From Escherichia coli (lineage in GTDB: Bacteria > Pseudomonadota > Gammaproteobacteria > Enterobacterales > Enterobacteriaceae), in NCBI RefSeq assembly GCF_045037415.1, contig NZ_CP173438.1: a DNA stretch of 64,000 nt, one strand, 5' to 3'. Below are positions 15,845-21,461 of the stretch, piece by piece. Position numbers and translations under genes: made by a program. The notes below the pieces were generated by a model. That model was given only the letters and a program-made list of their open reading frames with translations. It was not told where the DNA came from and ran no database searches. Every line of letters begins with the position of its first letter. The stretch's first letter is position 1.

Positions 15845-15929
15845 TATTAGGAATTGTATTGTTCGGAAGAATAATAAAATAACTAGTTAATTTGTGGATT
15901 GGTGCTGTTTTTCCATGATAGGGGTAATT

Positions 15930-16310
15930 ATGAGAAAAGTATTTTTGATTTTTGGATTTATGCTTCTCGTTGGATGCCAGTCAGCTGCACAGTTTGAAAG
16001 AAATATGCTTACGTGGCGCGGGCAGAGTATAGACGCAATGGTTCAGCAGTGGGGGTATCCTCAGGGAGAGCTTACATCTCCAGATGGAAACAGAGTGTAT
16101 GTTTACTCAAGCTCTGGTAGTTATAACGTACCACAAACCACAACGTATAATACTACGTCTAATCTAATTGGTAATACTATATATTCAAACACATACGCAA
16201 CAACTGATGGCGGTTATACACTCCATTTCAGTTGCTCTGTTTACGTTGAGTTTGGTGCTGATAAGATTATTAAAAATGTTACATGGCGCGGTAATAATTG
16301 CGTTGCGTGA
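15930..16310 (+). CDS. Lipoprotein (moron), 126 aa
   Basis: Signal peptide MRKVFLIFGFMLLVGC with lipobox LLVGC; AT-rich context; terminator directly downstream. Confidence 0.7.
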   Translation: MRKVFLIFGFMLLVGCQSAAQFERNMLTWRGQSIDAMVQQWGYPQGELTSPDGNRVYVYSSSGSYNVPQTTTYNTTSNLIGNTIYSNTYATTDGGYTLHFSCSVYVEFGADKIIKNVTWRGNNCVA

Positions 16311-16319
16311 CATGTCACA

Positions 16320-16343
16320 GGCCGCTTTCGCGGCCTTGTTTTT
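16320..16343 (+). terminator. Rho-independent terminator after lipoprotein gene
   Basis: GGCCGC-TTTC-GCGGCC hairpin followed by TTGTTTTT. Confidence 0.7.
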
Positions 16344-16503
16344 AACGAATGCCACCGCCACCCGGGCGGGAATCCGCAGAACGCCCACCGCAGCGGGAGC
16401 CGTCAGCAGCAGTGTCGCTGTCGTGCTGACAACGACCGGCAAAGGCCTGAGTTGAAGCTACCAGAGACAACAAAACGAACAGTGCAGCAAATGCTTTTTT
16501 CAT
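16342..16503 (-). CDS. Possible small secreted peptide (53 aa)
   Basis: Signal-peptide-like N-terminus MKKAFAALFVLLSLVASTQAFA; GC-rich low-complexity mature part with two Cys; weak RBS. Confidence 0.3.
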   Translation of the reverse strand: MKKAFAALFVLLSLVASTQAFAGRCQHDSDTAADGSRCGGRSADSRPGGGGIR

Positions 16504-16601: not shown

Positions 16602-17234
16602 TTAATGCAGTTTATCTTTGCTTATAACCAGTAGTCTGTGGGTATGCACATCTTTATCACTGCCCCAACAGAAATCAGCCCACTGGCTATAGAAATCATC
16701 CCATGATGTCATGAAGCTAAGAGGTCTATCTTCTTCAGAGCCATCTGAAACGTATACATTATATCCTGGGGTGTTTATAGCCCAAGAAATCATTCTTTCC
16801 CAGAATCTTCTCCCATCGATTGTTTGTTGCTCATCAGATACAACGATCGCATATTGCTCTAGGAAGAACTGAAAAAAAATCTGAGGCAAACCATGAACAG
16901 CACGGTCATGAATAACATTAGGCGTACGCCATACCATGATCTGCGTACATGTTCTTTTGGCTTCGACGATATCTTCCCGAAAGATTAACTTAACCGCATA
17001 CACCGTTTCTGGAGTATCGCTGGTAGTAATCATTCTGTAATGATCGCCATTACAAGATTTTACAAGGCGATAACCATAAGGTGTTGTGAATCCCGGAAGA
17101 ACGAAATCAACCACACCTTTCGCTAAGTAGCTTTCGGTGTGACTAGTGTTCTTCTCAGACATGTTCAGTTTTCTATCGAAATCTGCTTCTGGGATAATGT
17201 ATGGCATCGCTTTTCTTGTTGTATTTGTTCTCAT
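16602..17234 (-). CDS. Uncharacterised cargo protein, 210 aa
   Basis: Strong RBS GGGAGG 5 nt before ATG; own sigma70-like promoter and operator upstream; no family recognised; AT-rich. Confidence 0.75.
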   Translation of the reverse strand: MRTNTTRKAMPYIIPEADFDRKLNMSEKNTSHTESYLAKGVVDFVLPGFTTPYGYRLVKSCNGDHYRMITTSDTPETVYAVKLIFREDIVEAKRTCTQIMVWRTPNVIHDRAVHGLPQIFFQFFLEQYAIVVSDEQQTIDGRRFWERMISWAINTPGYNVYVSDGSEEDRPLSFMTSWDDFYSQWADFCWGSDKDVHTHRLLVISKDKLH

Positions 17235-17293: not shown

Positions 17294-17308
17294 TTACCCT
17301 TGAGGTAA
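17294..17308. promoter_or_regulatory. Operator-like palindrome TTACC-N5-GGTAA (copy 1) overlapping the start region of the 16602-17234 gene
   Basis: Perfect 5-bp inverted repeat with 5-bp spacer; abuts the predicted -10. Confidence 0.5.
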
Positions 17309-17336
17309 TAGTACGCTATTCACCCCCAGTCTGCAA
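17308..17336 (-). promoter_or_regulatory. Sigma70-like promoter for the 210-aa gene
   Basis: Minus-strand TTGCAG-N17-TACTAT, about 75 nt upstream of the ATG. Confidence 0.45.
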
Positions 17337-17380
17337 TCTGTACAGAATTATTTAAAGGCACATCCCTGTGCCGCCGCCCG

Positions 17381-18037
17381 TCAGAAGAACCCTGCCTTGT
17401 CGTTGATGTACTCCGCGTGCGTCTGGATATCACGCAGGCATTTGCTCACACCAACGATGTAGCAGAACATGGTGGTCAGCTCCGCCGCCGCGCCCGATAC
17501 GTCGTGCCCGTCGTCCTGTAACTGGTTCAGCAGATTCATCAGCAGTGAGTTCTCCGTCAGGCCGAGAACACCAGACGGCGAGTGAATCAGGCTGCGGTAG
17601 CCGGGCTTCAGTGGGGCACTGTATTCTTTTTTGTCTTCCAGCTTGATCGCCTCCATAATGGCGGGCATGAAGCCTGACAAGACCTTCTCCACTTTTGTTT
17701 CTTGTTGTCTTAAACGTTTCTCGCATTCAATGAAGTAGCGTCGCACCTGGCGACCTTTTTCGTTACGCTCGACCATCGCCAGCTCTTTGGCTGTATCAAG
17801 GGTGAGGTGGTACTCTTTGCGGTTGTGGCCGCCTCTACCAGATGTTTGCTTTCCCAAATTGGAAAGCAAAATATAGTCTTGATTTTCAATGAATTCGTAT
17901 TCTGATATGCGATTTGTAATCCATGCTGCAAACACCTTTTTAACACCTAAAAAAGCGTGCAGATCGCGGGCATTACAAAGTAGGGCTGTTTCGTTAGATA
18001 TAGTGCCGTTGAATACGGGGATGAGTTGAGCGTTCAT
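17381..18037 (-). CDS. Antirepressor-like protein: AntA-type N-terminal domain plus C-terminal domain paralogous to the small SOS-controlled protein
   Basis: GGAG RBS; N-terminal motif [27 protein letters not shown] typical of AntA/AntB antirepressor domains; C-terminal 70 aa about 40% identical to the 18357-18614 product. Confidence 0.65.
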
Positions 18038-18196
18038 GATGGCGTCTCCACTTAGCGAATTACATCACCACCGCTGAGAACCAATCAGATGGTGGTGAAC
18101 TGAACGGAGTTGGTCTTACCGGCCTAAGTGGTACCGGCGTCCTTTCGGACCCCCATTCAGCCCACCATAATTCTGGCATGACTGTGCTATACGCAT

Positions 18197-18218
18197 AAAA
18201 AAACCACGTCTGGCGTGG
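18197..18218 (-). terminator. Putative rho-independent terminator between the small SOS-controlled gene and the antirepressor gene
   Basis: CCACG-N5-CGTGG hairpin followed by seven U on the minus strand; short stem. Confidence 0.4.
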
Positions 18219-18308
18219 TATGCGCCACTTAGTAATCCGGGAGAACCAATCCCGGCACTGGATTTTGCCAGTGCCCGATTACTATGGCACAAGAGGAGTG
18301 CGATGTAA

Positions 18309-18327
18309 ATTTACCGCAAAGGTAAAT
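18309..18327. promoter_or_regulatory. Operator-like palindrome ATTTACC-N5-GGTAAAT (copy 2)
   Basis: 7-bp inverted repeat with 5-bp spacer, same core as copies 1 and 3. Confidence 0.45.
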
Positions 18328-18356
18328 ATAAGCACTCCATTTGGTAATTTCAAACC

Positions 18357-18614
18357 TTATCTGGTTTGTTTTCGTAATTGTTCGGCACAATAGTCGAGAT
18401 GTGTTTGCAGATCCTGCATAGACATCTGTGAGCTGGTGACGTAGTTAATCAGTGCAGTCAGTTCGGCAAGTGGGCCATCGACATTAAATCCATCCTTATC
18501 GAGATCCCGGAGTAATTTCATCAAGTGCGATCCCTCCACCAGTGACCTGACGCCTCCCGGCGTGTGAATCCTTTCGGTAAATCCGTCTTCCAGTGGATAG
18601 TGATACTGCTGCAT
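18357..18614 (-). CDS. Small SOS-box-controlled protein (about 85 aa), candidate SOS-inducible antirepressor
   Basis: GGAGAA RBS before ATG at 18614; LexA box 19 nt upstream; homologous to C-terminus of the adjacent AntA-like protein; ORF track extends to 18737 but upstream part covers promoter and operator. Confidence 0.6.
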   Translation of the reverse strand: MQQYHYPLEDGFTERIHTPGGVRSLVEGSHLMKLLRDLDKDGFNVDGPLAELTALINYVTSSQMSMQDLQTHLDYCAEQLRKQTR

Positions 18615-18633
18615 CTTATCTTCTCCATGCAAT

Positions 18634-18653
18634 AACTGTATATTTATACAGTA
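18634..18653. promoter_or_regulatory. LexA (SOS) box
   Basis: AACTGTATATTTATACAGTA matches the E. coli LexA consensus TACTGTATATATATACAGTA at 18 of 20 positions, with CTGT-N8-ACAG intact. Confidence 0.75.
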
Positions 18654-18689
18654 GCAAATAATTTGTTTGCTATCCAGCACGTTTTGCAA

Positions 18690-18706
18690 ATTACCTGAAA
18701 GGTAAT
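18690..18706. promoter_or_regulatory. Operator-like palindrome ATTACC-N5-GGTAAT (copy 3) upstream of the LexA box
   Basis: Perfect 6-bp inverted repeat with 5-bp spacer. Confidence 0.5.
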
Positions 18707-18809
18707 ATCTATTCGTATTTACAGCCTTTCTATCCATATGTGGTTTTCCAGGTAATAGAATAACCAGATATGCGGCGCAACGGGTGCTGCGACTATCTGG
18801 AGATTTAAC

Positions 18810-21461
18810 ATGACGGTTTCAACCGAAGTTGACCACAACGAATACACCGGTAACGGAGCTACGACATCATTTCCGTATACCTTCCGTATTTTCAAAAAAT
18901 CCGACCTGGTTGTTCAGGTGTCTGACCTGAACGGGAACGTAACAGAATTGGTTCTGGATACTGACTACACAGTAACCAATGCTGGAGGATATAATGGCGG
19001 TAATGTAATTCTGTCGAAGGCGTTGGCTAACGGTTATCATATTTCTATATCACGAGAGCTCCCGGTTACGCAGGATACTGATTTGCGTAATCAGGGTAAG
19101 TTCTTCGCTGAGGTACATGAAGACGCGTTCGATAAACTGACAATGCTTATTCAAAAGTGTTTTTCATGGATGAGGTTAGCACTTATAAAACCAAGCATTC
19201 TGGCTAACTATTATGATGCAAAAAATAATAAGATATCAAATCTAGCAAATGCCACTGACAGAAACGATGCTGTCAATAAAGGTTATGTTGATGATCTTTT
19301 TACTGGAGGTGTAACGCCTACATCTAACAGCGCTAAAAACGATATTTTTACAAATCACCAAAGAAAGATTGTAGCTACGATGCCGCTTCTTTTTCCTGAA
19401 TATGATGCGATTATGGCTGCTAACCCGTCAGCAACTTATATGTATCCTCAAGGATTCTGCGTTAGCGAAGATTTGATATACATCACTTATCCATTTGAGC
19501 CTAAACAGACGAATAATGTCGTCGCAGTATTTAACATATCTGGTATTTATCAAGGTTATTTCTATGTTCAGGCTGGCGGCCCAGGCTTCGCTGCTGAAGG
19601 AATCGTGGTTACGTCAGACTATGGCCCCAAAAAAATGTTTGTTGGTCACACAAACGGAATACTGCGTGAATTTAATATGGAGGGGGCATTATACGGAAGC
19701 AATCTGCCTCTTGTACAAAACCATGATGTTGGATTATTCAACCAGTTCAGCTACAGAAGAGGTATATGGCTCGTTGAGCAGAATGCGCCAGAAGTAGGAC
19801 AGAAAATCACAAGAACTGTACTTGCAGTGTTCGACAGTGGTTTCAATCGCCTGTCAACTATAACGCTGCCGTTACATGATGTTGGGTATGTAACTAAAAG
19901 CACCTCACCTTATGCGCCTTATTTCAACAAGCGTCAGGGTATTGCGGTAGGTGATAACTACTTTGTCTGCGGCTATGGCGGCTTCATAGCTGATGGGGCA
20001 GGAAGCGCAGGATATAACGAATATCAGGGCAGCAAAGTTTTTAACCCTGACGGTACAAAGCGAACTGAATCAATGCTTCATCCTCAGGCCATGATGGATT
20101 TAATGAAAGCCGCAGGATTGAACGTCACTCGCATAGAAAATGAAGGCGTTTGTGTTTCTCAGGATGGAAAATCCATTTATTCACTTTACATTCATCAGGA
20201 AAGAACTGGCTCTGAACCTTACAATTCAGGTTTGGTTATTTTCGAAGATTTCTCCACTGATAAAGATGCTATCGATTTTACACCTGCATCCAGGCTTTAC
20301 CGCGGATTTGATATCGATCACGCGAGCATTGGGGTATATCCCCGTAGTGCGAAGGGGATTGTTAACCCTGTAGATGGTACGTTGTTCACTAACATGACTG
20401 AAATTCTTCGCTATATGCAGGAGATGAGTCAGAAGGCATTTAATTTTTACACAGGGACTGTCAGCATTGCTGATATATCTGGCGTGGCAATCCCTTCCAG
20501 CACATATGTTGAAATACTGAATGCGAATAATCAGACTTTTATAGTCAACTATTATTCATCTGATAGTGGCATTAGTTATTTGGTTGCAACTAATCCTTCT
20601 GGTGACTTTGTATTTGTGCGCCAGCGACCGGCACAGTGGGCATCTAACTTAACCATTCAGCAAAACGCAGATCCTGATACAAACCAATTAAACCGCATCA
20701 CTGCATCATCATATGCCGGTGCAACTACAAACTCTCAGAAAATATTGGTCCTTGACCAGCAGGCTACAGCTAGCGCAAATAGCTTGGTATTGGGCGGTAG
20801 TTCTTCTGTGTTTAGGTCTGCCACCACGGTGGATATTGCATGCAACAGCGACCCGACAGCATTGGGAGGAACCATACGCTGGCGGTTTTATGATACAGGT
20901 CTTCGCCCGTTTGCTGACAATACCTATAATTTTGGTCAGGCATCGTTTCGTATTAAAGACGCCTACTTTGCAAATGCCCCAACCGTTTCATCAGATGCCA
21001 CGCTGAAAACCAATCCCGAGGCAATATCAGATTTAAGTGAAATGCTTTCTTCTGATAGAGACAGCATTCTTGATGCCTGGGGCGATATTTCTGTTGTGGC
21101 GTATCGATGGCTCGACGCTATATCCATGAAGGGCGATGGTGCCAGATGGCATTTTGGCGTCATGGCTCAGCAGGTAAGGGATGTATTCTTGGCGCACGGA
21201 ATTGATGGAACCAGATTTGGCCTTCTTTGCTATGACGAGTGGGATGATATTTTTGAGCCGGTAATCGCGACTAAAGAGATTACCGATACGTCTGGTGAGT
21301 TGGTCACCGTCGAATATGACACCGGAGAACAGAGGCTGGTTAAAAAAGCGGGTAGTTCATGGGGTATACGGCCTGACCAGTGCGCTTGGCTTGAGGCTGC
21401 ATATCAGCGCCGTCGATGCGATCGTATTGAAGAGCGACTCGAACTATTGGAATCAAAATAA
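18810..21461 (+). CDS. Tailspike protein with C-terminal intramolecular chaperone (peptidase S74-like) domain, 883 aa
   Basis: RBS CTGGAG; conserved-looking N-terminal virion-anchor region; C-terminal block (RWHFGVMAQQVRDVF...) resembles the self-cleaving chaperone domain of endosialidases and tail fibres. Confidence 0.75.
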   Translation: MTVSTEVDHNEYTGNGATTSFPYTFRIFKKSDLVVQVSDLNGNVTELVLDTDYTVTNAGGYNGGNVILSKALANGYHISISRELPVTQDTDLRNQGKFFAEVHEDAFDKLTMLIQKCFSWMRLALIKPSILANYYDAKNNKISNLANATDRNDAVNKGYVDDLFTGGVTPTSNSAKNDIFTNHQRKIVATMPLLFPEYDAIMAANPSATYMYPQGFCVSEDLIYITYPFEPKQTNNVVAVFNISGIYQGYFYVQAGGPGFAAEGIVVTSDYGPKKMFVGHTNGILREFNMEGALYGSNLPLVQNHDVGLFNQFSYRRGIWLVEQNAPEVGQKITRTVLAVFDSGFNRLSTITLPLHDVGYVTKSTSPYAPYFNKRQGIAVGDNYFVCGYGGFIADGAGSAGYNEYQGSKVFNPDGTKRTESMLHPQAMMDLMKAAGLNVTRIENEGVCVSQDGKSIYSLYIHQERTGSEPYNSGLVIFEDFSTDKDAIDFTPASRLYRGFDIDHASIGVYPRSAKGIVNPVDGTLFTNMTEILRYMQEMSQKAFNFYTGTVSIADISGVAIPSSTYVEILNANNQTFIVNYYSSDSGISYLVATNPSGDFVFVRQRPAQWASNLTIQQNADPDTNQLNRITASSYAGATTNSQKILVLDQQATASANSLVLGGSSSVFRSATTVDIACNSDPTALGGTIRWRFYDTGLRPFADNTYNFGQASFRIKDAYFANAPTVSSDATLKTNPEAISDLSEMLSSDRDSILDAWGDISVVAYRWLDAISMKGDGARWHFGVMAQQVRDVFLAHGIDGTRFGLLCYDEWDDIFEPVIATKEITDTSGELVTVEYDTGEQRLVKKAGSSWGIRPDQCAWLEAAYQRRRCDRIEERLELLESK

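What the first reader, a model, noticed from the sequence alone, without database searches (positions are those of the whole stretch)
17294..18706. Three copies of a TTACC-N5-GGTAA palindrome at the cassette promoters
Copies at 17294-17308 (TTACCcttgaGGTAA), 18309-18327 (ATTTACCgcaaaGGTAAAT) and 18690-18706 (ATTACCtgaaaGGTAAT) share the same core and spacing. Copy 1 abuts a good sigma70-like promoter (TTGCAG-N17-TACTAT) for the 210-aa gene and would cover its transcription start; copy 3 sits about 40 bp upstream of the LexA box. This is the signature of a dimeric repressor operator set, implying a second regulatory input in addition to LexA. The cognate binding protein is not obvious in the window.
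Basis: seen in the sequence. Interest (0 to 1): 0.6.

Follow-up and report, generated by a model that had tools for sequence, protein, structure and literature searches.

The report
Prophage repressor operators at antirepressor cassettes
The three palindromes are real and are very probably binding sites for the prophage's own master repressor, whose gene lies outside the window, so this is a genuine but ordinary operator set of a phage family in which such sites are already annotated.

Summary
Observation confirmed. TTACC-N5-GGTAA occurs exactly three times in 64 kb, all within 1.4 kb, against 0.04 expected.

The window holds only the right half of an epsilon15/phiV10-type (Uetakevirus) prophage inserted at guaA. 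A 99.9%-identical complete prophage (E. coli 447) carries seven more exact copies. These flank a repressor gene homologous to SPC32H Rep (PDB 5D50) and epsilon15 gp38, and also precede the replication, terS and portal units. The epsilon15 GenBank record annotates the same palindrome as 'repressor' binding sites, including the positional homologue of copy 3.

Across 160 related loci the half-sites are kept while spacer and flanks vary. This argues for a protein site, not a hairpin.

- **Copies 1 and 2** overlap the -10/+1 of leftward sigma70-like promoters, in the same register as P_L. They control a 210-aa cargo gene and an isrK-C4-large-Ant module.
- **Copy 3** sits about 70 bp upstream of the tailspike promoter. 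It probably serves that promoter rather than the LexA-controlled small ant promoter.

The missing protein is Rep, encoded about 27 kb upstream.

One extra result: the operator is the exact mosaic junction at which promoter and cargo modules have been shuffled among relatives.

Verdict: new member of a known kind; modest interest.

The parts
17294..17308 (.). Operator copy 1 (TTACCCTTGAGGTAA), proposed Rep site covering about -7 to +8 of the cargo promoter
   Evidence: The same promoter-operator junction is conserved in relatives with varying spacer.
17308..17336 (-). Cargo promoter-like site TTGCAG-N17-TACTAT (-35 at 17336..17331, -10 at 17313..17308)
   Evidence: Read. It is 7/12 to consensus and was not listed by the scan. 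The last T of the -10 is the first T of TTACC, as at P_L and other operator-proximal promoters.
16602..17234 (-). 210-aa cargo gene of unknown function
   Evidence: It matches phrog_1349 (unknown function) and has no Pfam, NCBIfam or PADLOC hit. In relatives other cargos replace it at the same operator junction.
17381..18037 (-). Large antirepressor (218 aa): an Ant-type N-terminal part fused to a C-terminal domain homologous to the small Ant
   Evidence: phrog_377 'anti-repressor Ant', plus phrog_450 over residues 135-216. Residues 137-210 are 42% identical to the small Ant.
18088..18172 (-). C4 antisense RNA homologue
   Evidence: Rfam RF01695, 61.2 bits against a gathering score of 45.
18197..18274 (-). 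isrK-like sRNA with its own terminator
   Evidence: Rfam RF01394, 60.9 bits against a gathering score of 50. Terminator-like hairpin plus T-run at 18219..18203.
18281..18309 (-). Promoter-like site TTTACA-N17-CATAGT (with upstream TG), whose predicted start fits the isrK 5' end at 18274; copy 2 abuts its -35
18309..18327 (.). Operator copy 2 (ATTTACCGCAAAGGTAAAT; core 18311-18325)
   Evidence: It is conserved in phiV10 and Tyrion with different spacers. Three unrelated upstream promoter contexts join the same isrK module at this site.
18325..18353 (-). Promoter-like site TTGAAA-N17-TATATT just after the small ant stop codon; the operator covers its -10/+1
   Evidence: 10/12 match. Equivalent TTGCAA/TTGTAA-N17-TATATT/TATTAT/AATCAT in relatives keep the same register.
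18357..18614 (-). Small antirepressor Ant (85 aa), homologue of SPC32H Ant and epsilon15 gp19
   Evidence: phmmer against PDB 5d50_E, E = 4e-47.
18636..18651 (.). LexA box CTGTATATTTATACAG upstream of the small ant gene
   Evidence: A CTGT-N8-ACAG box is present 37 bp upstream of the ant ATG in 67 of 80 diverse relatives and is conserved in four genus members.
18690..18706 (.). Operator copy 3 (ATTACCTGAAAGGTAAT), positional homologue of the epsilon15 site annotated 'protein_bind repressor'
   Evidence: Exact in 78 of 80 diverse relatives at a fixed distance from ant.
18733..18761 (+). Tailspike promoter-like site TCCATA-N17-TAGAAT, with a conserved GGTAAT half-site at 18751-18756; the centre of copy 3 lies about 70 bp upstream of the predicted start
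   Evidence: Conserved blocks (T)TCATAT..GGTT and GGTAATAGAAT lie at a fixed 30-nt offset from the operator in all relatives.
18810..21461 (+). Tailspike / tail fibre gene, the unit downstream of copy 3
   Evidence: Annotated as tail fibre/tailspike in relatives.

Best explanation
The three palindromes are operators for the prophage's master repressor Rep. Rep is an HTH protein homologous to SPC32H Rep and epsilon15 gp38. Its gene lies about 27 kb upstream in the same prophage, outside the window.

Proposed mechanism in the lysogen (inferred):
- At copy 1, Rep sits across -10/+1 of the promoter of the 210-aa cargo gene and blocks it.
- At copy 2, Rep sits across -10/+1 of one promoter and abuts the -35 of a second. 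This keeps the isrK - C4 - large Ant module off.
- At copy 3, Rep sits about 70 bp upstream of the tailspike promoter start. That is the same distal position as the upstream operators of P_L and of the portal and replication units. It probably represses through contacts with a second site: the conserved GGTAAT half-site at the -10, or copy 2 at 380 bp, by looping of the Rep tetramer.

Proposed induction sequence (inferred): the SOS response removes LexA from the box at 18636-18651. Small Ant is made and disassembles Rep. All Rep-controlled promoters then open together, including the three here.

Shown here: the sites, their enrichment, their conservation pattern, their register relative to promoter-like hexamers, and the presence of the Rep and Ant homologues.

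Inferred, not shown: physical binding, which promoter each site controls, and looping.
For: 1. Enrichment. Three exact copies against 0.04 expected in the window. Ten exact copies in the 99.9%-identical complete prophage, all inside the prophage, against 0.00 in shuffles. Eleven in epsilon15 against 0.03.

2. Placement in the full prophage. Two copies lie on the P_L side of the repressor gene (L004 10462, 10524). One exact and one 1-mismatch copy lie between the repressor and the divergent cro-position gene (11236, 11284). Further copies precede the replication-adjacent, terS and portal units.

3. Prior annotation. GenBank AY150271.2 marks seven ATTACC-N5-GGTAAT sites 'protein_bind, repressor, lysogeny'. 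Site 19895-19911 is the homologue of copy 3.

4. Cognate proteins. The repressor of the full prophage matches PDB 5d50_A 'Repressor' (E = 4e-42). It is 42% identical to epsilon15 gp38, with the helix segment NLVNRW conserved. Small Ant matches 5d50_E (E = 4e-47). SPC32H Rep is reported to bind palindromic sites as a tetramer that Ant disassembles (PMC9638917). Its C-terminal domain has a fold associated with DNA looping (PMC9986798).

5. Conservation pattern of a protein site.
- In 80 diverse loci the copy 3 position is exact in 78 and has one mismatch in 2, within at least 45 different spacer/flank contexts.
- In 77 close relatives only the spacer varies, apart from an uncompensated GGTGA variant half-site.
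- That variant half-site also occurs at O_R-type sites.

6. Fixed register. The last T of a -10-like hexamer is the first T of TTACC at copy 1, at copy 2, at P_L of both phages (TTGACA-N17-AATTAT / GATTAT) and in at least 9 unrelated promoter contexts. This holds for 152 of 373 oriented contexts against about 1% of random positions.

7. Copy 3 geometry. The fixed 30-nt offset to the (T)TCATAT..GGTT / GGTAATAGAAT promoter blocks recurs at the portal, holin and replication-adjacent units.
Against: - No binding or expression data were available. The primary SPC32H and epsilon15 papers could not be read, so I cannot say whether the epsilon15 'repressor' features were footprinted or only predicted.
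- The repressor gene is not in the window. It is inferred from a 99.9%-identical genome over the 2.4 kb compared.
- The copy 1 promoter is weak by consensus (7/12).
- Copy 3 does not overlap any core promoter, so its mode of repression is conjectural.
- A Cro-like protein might share the sites.
- The related loci are phylogenetically non-independent, so counts overstate the number of independent observations.
Confidence: 0.87

Rival explanations
1. The palindromes act as RNA or DNA hairpins (terminators, processing or stabilising stem-loops) in the leftward transcripts rather than as protein-binding sites.
For: Each can form a 6-7 bp stem. In phiV10, copy 2 is embedded in a perfect 18+5+18 palindrome. 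A short T-run lies 9 nt after copy 1 on the minus strand.
Against: - The hairpins are weak: -5.0 to -6.4 kcal/mol, z of -1.5 to -2.3, with 7-14 of 200 shuffles folding as well.
- None was called terminator-like.
- Variation in relatives shows no compensatory changes. The half-sites are fixed, and the only common variant (GGTGA) breaks the stem.
- The outer arms at copy 2 are absent in other contexts of the same site.
- The same motif lies in untranscribed promoter positions around the repressor gene.
Confidence: 0.03
2. The sites are bound by a different protein from Rep: a host transcription factor, the phage Cro-like protein alone, or a dedicated cassette regulator comparable to P22 Mnt/Arc or P1 C1 at immI.
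For: - No binding data exist here.
- In lambdoid switches Cro and CI share operators, so the small protein encoded divergently from Rep (L004 11335-11565) could also use them.
- The module between copies 2 and 1 resembles P1 immI and Gifsy-1 isrK-anrP, which have their own regulators (PMC4825925).
Against: - The motif is absent from the 40.6 kb of host DNA in the window. It is confined to the prophage in L004, which argues against a host factor.
- No additional regulator gene lies in the cassettes.
- The P1 C1 operator consensus (recalled from memory) has no match within 3 mismatches.
- The sites cluster around the Rep gene in the classic O_L/O_R layout and are annotated as repressor sites in epsilon15.
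- Sharing with a Cro-like protein would add to, not replace, the Rep explanation.
Confidence: 0.07
3. The palindromes are primarily recombination sites that mark cassette boundaries (attC-like or crossover hot spots), and their resemblance to operators is secondary.
For: - Two unrelated promoter types combine freely with several unrelated cargos exactly at the 15-bp palindrome. Three different upstream contexts join the isrK module at copy 2. Spacer variants are shared across both promoter and cargo types.
Against: - Most copies in the genome are not at variable cassettes but at fixed early and late promoters and beside the repressor gene.
- Copy 3 is ancestral and flanked by conserved sequence on both sides.
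- No dedicated recombinase is associated with the cassettes.
- The strict -10 register points to selection for transcriptional control.
- Junctions at a shared regulatory sequence are expected wherever it is the only homology between modules.
Confidence: 0.03

Closest known systems
Repressor binding sites annotated in Salmonella phage epsilon15 (GenBank AY150271.2; Kropinski et al. 2007, paper not readable here)
   Same: Same 15-17 bp palindrome (A)TTACC-N5-GGTAA(T). Same genus-level genome organisation. The site at 19895-19911, between gp19 (small Ant) and the tailspike gene, is the positional homologue of copy 3. Sites are scattered at early and late units as well as around the repressor gene.
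   Different: epsilon15 has no large-Ant or cargo cassettes, so copies 1 and 2 have no counterpart there. The repressors are only 42% identical. I could not establish whether the epsilon15 features rest on experiment.
SPC32H Rep-Ant switch (PDB 5D50/5D4Z; Kim & Ryu 2013; Kim et al. 2016, known here only through PDB sequences and secondary citations)
   Same: Rep homologue (E = 4e-42) and small Ant homologue (E = 4e-47). A LexA box lies upstream of ant. According to PMC9638917, Rep binds palindromic DNA as a tetramer and is disassembled by tetrameric Ant. PMC7380047 summarises the LexA control of Ant.
   Different: This E. coli prophage adds a second, Rep-controlled antirepressor carrying the same Ant domain, behind isrK and C4 RNAs, plus a Rep-controlled cargo gene. 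Operator sequences used in the SPC32H work could not be checked.
P1 immI (Op51 - c4 - icd - ant) and Gifsy-1 isrK - orf45/STnc1160 - anrP
   Same: An antirepressor gene is preceded by a C4-family antisense RNA, and here also by an isrK homologue. In Gifsy-1 the antirepressor is expressed by read-through of the isrK terminator (PMC4825925). The promoter of the module carries an operator for the phage's primary repressor, as Op51 does in P1 (P1 detail from my own knowledge).
   Different: The operator here is the symmetric Rep palindrome, not the asymmetric C1 site; there is no match to the recalled C1 consensus. The module sits next to a LexA-controlled small Ant in a podovirus. The function of the RNAs here is untested.
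Lambda-type operator sets with cooperative or looped repressor binding (O_L/O_R)
   Same: Multiple copies of one palindrome around the repressor gene. A proximal site covers -10/+1 and a distal site lies 62 bp upstream in a recurring pair (L004 10462/10524 and 13567/13629; epsilon15 32555/32617 and 35907/35969). The repressor oligomerises through a C-terminal domain (PMC9986798).
   Different: Operators are also placed at late-gene and accessory-gene promoters across the whole genome. The repressor is inactivated by an antirepressor rather than by RecA-mediated cleavage (PMC7380047).

Membership tests
epsilon15/SPC32H-type Rep operators | Sequence: inverted repeat (A)TTACC-N5-GGTAA(T) as annotated in epsilon15 | tested here: met
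   All three copies have both 5-bp half-sites exact. Copy 3 matches the full 17-mer. Copy 1 has A/T extension on one side only. Copy 2 has T/A instead of A/T at the outer position.
epsilon15/SPC32H-type Rep operators | A cognate Rep homologue encoded by the same phage | tested here: met
   It is not in the window. In the 99.9%-identical complete prophage, L004 10596-11180(-) matches PDB 5d50_A (E = 4e-42) and is 42% identical to epsilon15 gp38.
epsilon15/SPC32H-type Rep operators | Further copies flank the repressor gene at the divergent early promoters | tested here: met
   L004 10462 and 10524 on one side; 11236 and 11284 (1 mismatch) on the other. P_L is TTGACA-N17-AATTAT with the operator at +1.
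epsilon15/SPC32H-type Rep operators | Positional homology with an annotated repressor site | tested here: met
   Copy 3 aligns with epsilon15 19895-19911. Copies 1 and 2 have no epsilon15 counterpart, but copy 2 is present in phiV10 and Tyrion.
epsilon15/SPC32H-type Rep operators | Half-sites under purifying selection with a free spacer, as expected of a protein site | tested here: met
   Exact in 78 of 80 diverse loci within at least 45 contexts. Spacer variants occur in close relatives.
epsilon15/SPC32H-type Rep operators | Physical binding by Rep and Rep-dependent repression | not testable with these tools
   Needs EMSA or footprinting, ChIP and reporter assays.
LexA (SOS) boxes | CTGT-N8-ACAG consensus | tested here: not met
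   The palindromes have no CTGT/ACAG. The true LexA box is a separate element at 18636-18651.
Intrinsic terminators / structured RNA elements | Stable G+C-rich stem followed by a T-run, or covariation supporting a helix | tested here: not met
   Not listed among terminator-like sites. Free energies are -5 to -6.4 kcal/mol with z no stronger than -2.3. No compensatory changes are seen. No Rfam family covers them.
P1 C1 operators (Op51 of immI) | Asymmetric 17-bp C1 consensus ATTGCTCTAATAAATTT (recalled from memory) | tested here: not met
   No match within 3 mismatches anywhere in the window. The resemblance to immI is architectural only.

The most novel reading that the evidence does not exclude
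The Rep operator doubles as a recombination hot spot that defines interchangeable, repressor-controlled cargo cassettes. Promoter modules, the isrK-C4-Ant module and unrelated cargo genes (the 210-aa protein, YafO-family toxin, DUF4760 and others) are joined exactly at the 15-bp palindrome. They occur in near-free combination, which implies repeated crossovers within 5-17 bp of shared sequence. Candidate causes are the phage RecT/exonuclease pair or template switching at a Rep-bound palindrome. If so, this phage group keeps an accessory-gene array that is silent in the lysogen and switched on at induction, unlike classical morons.
Probability: 0.3. Interest if true: 0.55.

Novelty: new member of a known kind. 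Interest (0 to 1): 0.3.

Why it matters
It identifies the regulator missing from the window and gives a coherent wiring diagram for this widespread E. coli prophage type. Matches to the region occur in 884 of 5,426 complete E. coli genomes.

The proposed wiring is as follows. LexA holds the small Ant. Rep holds everything else, including a second antirepressor with the same Rep-binding domain and a swappable cargo gene. This predicts a feed-forward induction circuit. It also predicts that the cargo genes (toxins and unknowns) are induction-phase functions rather than lysogenic-conversion functions.

The operator-as-junction pattern is a concrete, testable example of how short regulatory palindromes shape phage mosaicism.

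None of this overturns current understanding. The operator motif and the Rep-Ant switch are already described for close relatives.

Tried and rejected
- **Chance occurrence:** rejected by shuffles.
- **Hairpin or terminator function:** rejected on weak folding, absence of covariation, and absence from the terminator scan and Rfam.
- **LexA sites or P1 C1 sites:** the sequences do not fit.
- **Host transcription-factor site:** no copies in host DNA.
- **Locating the small ant promoter relative to copy 3:** I found no convincing, conserved -35/-10 pair that the operator would overlap. TTGCAA abutting the operator has no conserved -10 17 bp away, and in close relatives it varies to TCGCAA, TTTCAA and TGGCA. 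Direct Rep control of P_ant is therefore left open. A leftward TTGAAT-N16-AATTAT promoter with the operator at +1 exists at this position in a few distant relatives, but not in the window lineage.
- **ATATGTGGTT as a separate activator site:** its exact copies (2 in L004, 2 in epsilon15) all lie downstream of operators. It is most simply the -35 (TTCATA/TCCATA) plus spacer of sigma70-type promoters.
- **Primary papers:** those on SPC32H (PMC3807360, PMC4983836) and epsilon15 (PMC2698709) are not held, and open-access papers mentioning SPC32H give no operator sequences.
- **Function of the 210-aa cargo protein:** not found in PHROGs (unknown-function family only), NCBIfam, PADLOC or Pfam.
Full report
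**1. The observation**

TTACC-N5-GGTAA has three exact matches in the 64-kb window, at 17294, 18311 and 18691. One hundred dinucleotide-preserving shuffles gave a mean of 0.04 and never more than one. With one mismatch allowed there are six matches against 0.92 expected. All three exact copies lie in the prophage part of the window and none in the 40.6 kb of host DNA.

**2. What the window is**

The region matches epsilon15/phiV10-type podoviruses (genus Uetakevirus). It is 99.9% identical over 2.4 kb to a prophage of E. coli strain 447.

The annotated neighbourhood of that genome (locus L004) shows a roughly 40-kb prophage inserted after guaA. Its gene order is: integrase, recombination genes, repressor, replication, terminase, portal, structural genes, tailspike, lysis.

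The window begins inside the portal gene. It therefore contains only the right half of the prophage (to about 23.4 kb). The immunity region lies outside it.

**3. Genes around the palindromes (minus strand unless stated)**

| Feature | Coordinates | Evidence |
|---|---|---|
| Small Ant (85 aa), near-identical to the SPC32H antirepressor crystallised with its repressor (PDB 5d50_E, E = 4e-47) | 18614..18357 | |
| Consensus LexA box preceding small ant | 18636-18651 | |
| isrK homologue (Rfam) | 18274..18197 | |
| C4 antisense RNA homologue (Rfam) | 18172..18088 | |
| Large antirepressor (218 aa); C-terminal 80 residues are 42% identical to the small Ant | 18037..17381 | |
| 210-aa protein with no recognisable family | 17234..16602 | |
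| Tailspike gene (plus strand, divergent) | starts 18810 | |

The isrK - C4-like RNA - antirepressor order is the one described for Gifsy-1 (isrK - orf45/STnc1160 - anrP, PMC4825925). From my own knowledge it also resembles P1 immI.

**4. Identity of the palindromes**

L004 contains ten exact copies, all inside the prophage, against none in shuffles. The seven that lie outside the window are placed as follows:
- two on the P_L side of the repressor gene (10462, 10524);
- one exact (11236), with a one-mismatch copy (11284) beside it, between the repressor gene and the divergent small gene;
- two before the gene after the replication genes (13567, 13629);
- one, with a one-mismatch neighbour, at terS (17762, 17780);
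- one upstream of the portal unit (20925).

The repressor is an HTH protein. It matches the SPC32H repressor (PDB 5d50_A, E = 4e-42). It is 42% identical to epsilon15 gp38, with the segment NLVNRW of the N-terminal HTH region conserved.

Epsilon15 itself has eleven exact copies. Its GenBank record labels seven ATTACC-N5-GGTAAT sites 'protein_bind, repressor, lysogeny'. One of them, 19895-19911, lies between gp19 (the small Ant) and the tailspike gene. It aligns with copy 3.

The palindromes are therefore the operator of the phage's master repressor.

**5. Protein site or hairpin?**

Eighty loci were retrieved through the E. coli small Ant and eighty more diverse ones through the Enterobacter phage Tyrion Ant.
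- In the diverse set, located only by distance from the ant start codon, the copy 3 site is exact in 78 of 80 and has one mismatch in 2. Spacer and flanks occur in at least 45 different versions.
- In the close set the spacer varies (TTTCA, TTTCG, TTTCT, TTTAT). The only frequent half-site change is GGTGA, without a compensating change in the other arm.
- The same variant half-site occurs at O_R-type sites of both phages.
- The hairpins are weak as RNA: -5.0 to -6.4 kcal/mol, z of -1.5 to -2.3.
- None resembles a terminator.

This is the pattern of a protein-binding site.

**6. Geometry**

*Copies 1 and 2 (proximal type).*
- On the minus strand, copy 1 follows TTGCAG-N17-TACTAT. The last T of the -10 is the first T of TTACC.
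- Copy 2 follows TTGAAA-N17-TATATT, a 10/12 match, in the same register.
- P_L of the E. coli prophage (TTGACA-N17-AATTAT) and of epsilon15 (TTGACA-N17-GATTAT) use this register too, as do at least nine unrelated promoter contexts in the relatives.
- Overall 152 of 373 oriented contexts satisfy the test, against about 1% of random positions. Part of that excess follows from the required T, and the contexts are not independent.
- An operator in this register covers roughly -7 to +8, the classic position for steric repression.
- Copy 2 also abuts the -35 of a second promoter-like site, TTTACA-N17-CATAGT. Its predicted start coincides with the 5' end of the isrK match.

*Copy 3 (distal type).*
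- It lies a fixed 30 nt upstream of the conserved block (T)TCATAT..GGTT, which is followed by GGTAATAGAAT. I read this as a -35 (TCCATA here) and a -10 (TAGAAT, 18756-18761) for the tailspike gene.
- The operator centre is then about 70 bp upstream of the predicted start.
- The same 'distal operator plus promoter block' layout precedes the portal unit, the epsilon15 holin unit and the unit after the replication genes.
- At P_L and the post-replication unit, a distal operator is paired with a proximal one exactly 62 bp away.
- SPC32H Rep is described as binding palindromes as a tetramer (PMC9638917), and its C-terminal domain has a fold linked to DNA looping (PMC9986798). Cooperative or looped binding is therefore the likeliest way a site at -70 represses. 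Possible partners are the conserved GGTAAT half-site at 18751-18756 or copy 2, 380 bp away. This step is inference.

*Small ant promoter.* I could not find a conserved core promoter for the small ant gene that copy 3 would overlap. The claim that Rep is a second input at the LexA-controlled promoter itself remains open. For the cassette region as a whole, Rep clearly is a second input.

**7. Proposed mechanism**

In the lysogen, Rep occupies all operators. It blocks the cargo promoter (copy 1), the promoters of the isrK-C4-large Ant module (copy 2) and the tailspike promoter (copy 3). LexA separately blocks small ant.

DNA damage removes LexA. Small Ant is made and disassembles Rep (reported for SPC32H; PMC9638917, PMC7380047). 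All Rep-controlled promoters then fire.

The large Ant carries the same Ant domain behind two regulatory RNAs. It would then reinforce the switch or act on related repressors. In the close relative vB_EcoP_ZX5, overproduction of its large (ORF4, BRO-type) antirepressor lowered lysogeny. Overproduction of the repressor abolished lytic gene transcription (PMC9782041).

The sites, proteins and geometry are shown here. Binding, repression and looping are inferred.

**8. An additional finding: shuffling at the operator**

Among the relatives, the operator is the exact boundary at which modules have been exchanged.
- Two unrelated promoter segments (ending ...gaatagcgtacta and ...gtagattcgcgtaata) are each joined at the palindrome to the same set of unrelated downstream sequences. 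These include the 210-aa gene of the window, a YafO-family toxin unit and others.
- Three different upstream contexts join the isrK module at copy 2.
- Spacer variants are shared across both promoter and cargo types. This places crossovers inside the palindrome.

The simplest reading is that the operator is the only homology between modules, and that only recombinants keeping the promoter-operator register survive. An active hot-spot role cannot be excluded.

Because the operators cover the cargo promoters, these accessory genes should be silent in the lysogen and expressed at induction.

**9. Comparison with what is known, and verdict**

The motif and its assignment to the repressor are already present in the epsilon15 annotation. 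The Rep-Ant-LexA switch is established for SPC32H. Copy 3 is a direct homologue of an annotated site.

Copies 1 and 2 lie in cassettes absent from epsilon15. To my knowledge, and in the literature I could search, they have not been described.

The membership features I could test were all met: sequence, cognate repressor, copies at the immunity region, positional homology, and selection pattern. Physical binding cannot be tested here.

The finding is a new member of a known kind. It is of modest interest. The cassette-junction pattern is the one aspect worth following up.

Noticed in passing
window 18088-18274 (minus strand): Rfam finds an isrK homologue (18197-18274) directly followed by a C4 antisense RNA homologue (18088-18172), just upstream of the large antirepressor gene. 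This combines the Gifsy-1 isrK-anrP and P1 c4-ant architectures inside a podovirus prophage.
   Followed up: partly
window 17381-18037 versus 18357-18614 (minus strand): The large antirepressor is a fusion. Its C-terminal ~80 residues are 42% identical to the LexA-controlled small Ant (the SPC32H Rep-binding protein). The prophage therefore carries two proteins with the same Ant domain under different controls.
   Followed up: partly
L005-L165 and L166/L167, at the operator equivalent to window 17294-17308 and 18311-18325: The operator is the exact mosaic junction. Two unrelated promoter types combine with at least 8 unrelated cargo sequences (the 210-aa protein, YafO-family toxin unit, DUF4760 and others). 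Three upstream contexts join the isrK module. Spacer variants are shared across types, implying crossovers within the 15-bp palindrome.
   Followed up: partly
L002 (phiV10) 2945-2985: In phiV10, copy 2 sits in a perfect 41-bp palindrome (GGAGTGCTTATATTTACC-TTTGC-GGTAAATATAAGCACTCC) with the spacer inverted relative to the window. This removes the TTTACA -35 of the isrK promoter-like site and looks like a template-switch 'palindromisation' event.
   Followed up: no
L004 10462/10524 and 13567/13629; L003 (epsilon15) 32555/32617 and 35907/35969: Operator pairs recur at exactly 62 bp start-to-start (about six helical turns). The portal promoter has a GGTAA half-site at the same 62-bp offset. This suggests a preferred geometry for the Rep tetramer.
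   Followed up: partly
window 18670-18679: A 10-bp block CTATCCAGCA between the LexA box and copy 3 is invariant in the window, phiV10, epsilon15 and Tyrion, although the surrounding intergenic sequence has diverged. I could not assign it to a promoter element or a known site.
   Followed up: no
window 18736-18761; L004 13614, 20982; L003 2989, 24752, 35954: The motif (C)ATATGTGGTT followed by GGTAAT-A(G/A)AAT-like sequence marks the rightward units. All exact copies (2 in L004, 2 in epsilon15) lie downstream of an operator. I read it as the -35 plus spacer of sigma70-type promoters, but a phage-specific factor is not excluded.
   Followed up: partly
window 15894-16310 (+) and 16342-16503 (-): Two small genes encode proteins with signal-peptide or lipoprotein-like N-termini (..LLVGC.. 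and MKKAFAALFVLLSLVASTQAFA..). They flank the structural-operon terminator (GTGACATGTCAC hairpin region, 16307-16350) and have no Rep operator. They are candidates for genes expressed in the lysogen.
   Followed up: no
L004 17716-18390: The RefSeq start of the small terminase gene in E. coli 447 lies upstream of two adjacent operators (17762, 17780). In epsilon15 these precede the terS start codon, so the annotated start is probably too early.
   Followed up: no
window 18343-18348: An isolated ATTACC half-site (minus strand) lies immediately after the -35 of the TTGAAA-N17-TATATT promoter-like site. It is conserved in most relatives that share this context.
   Followed up: no
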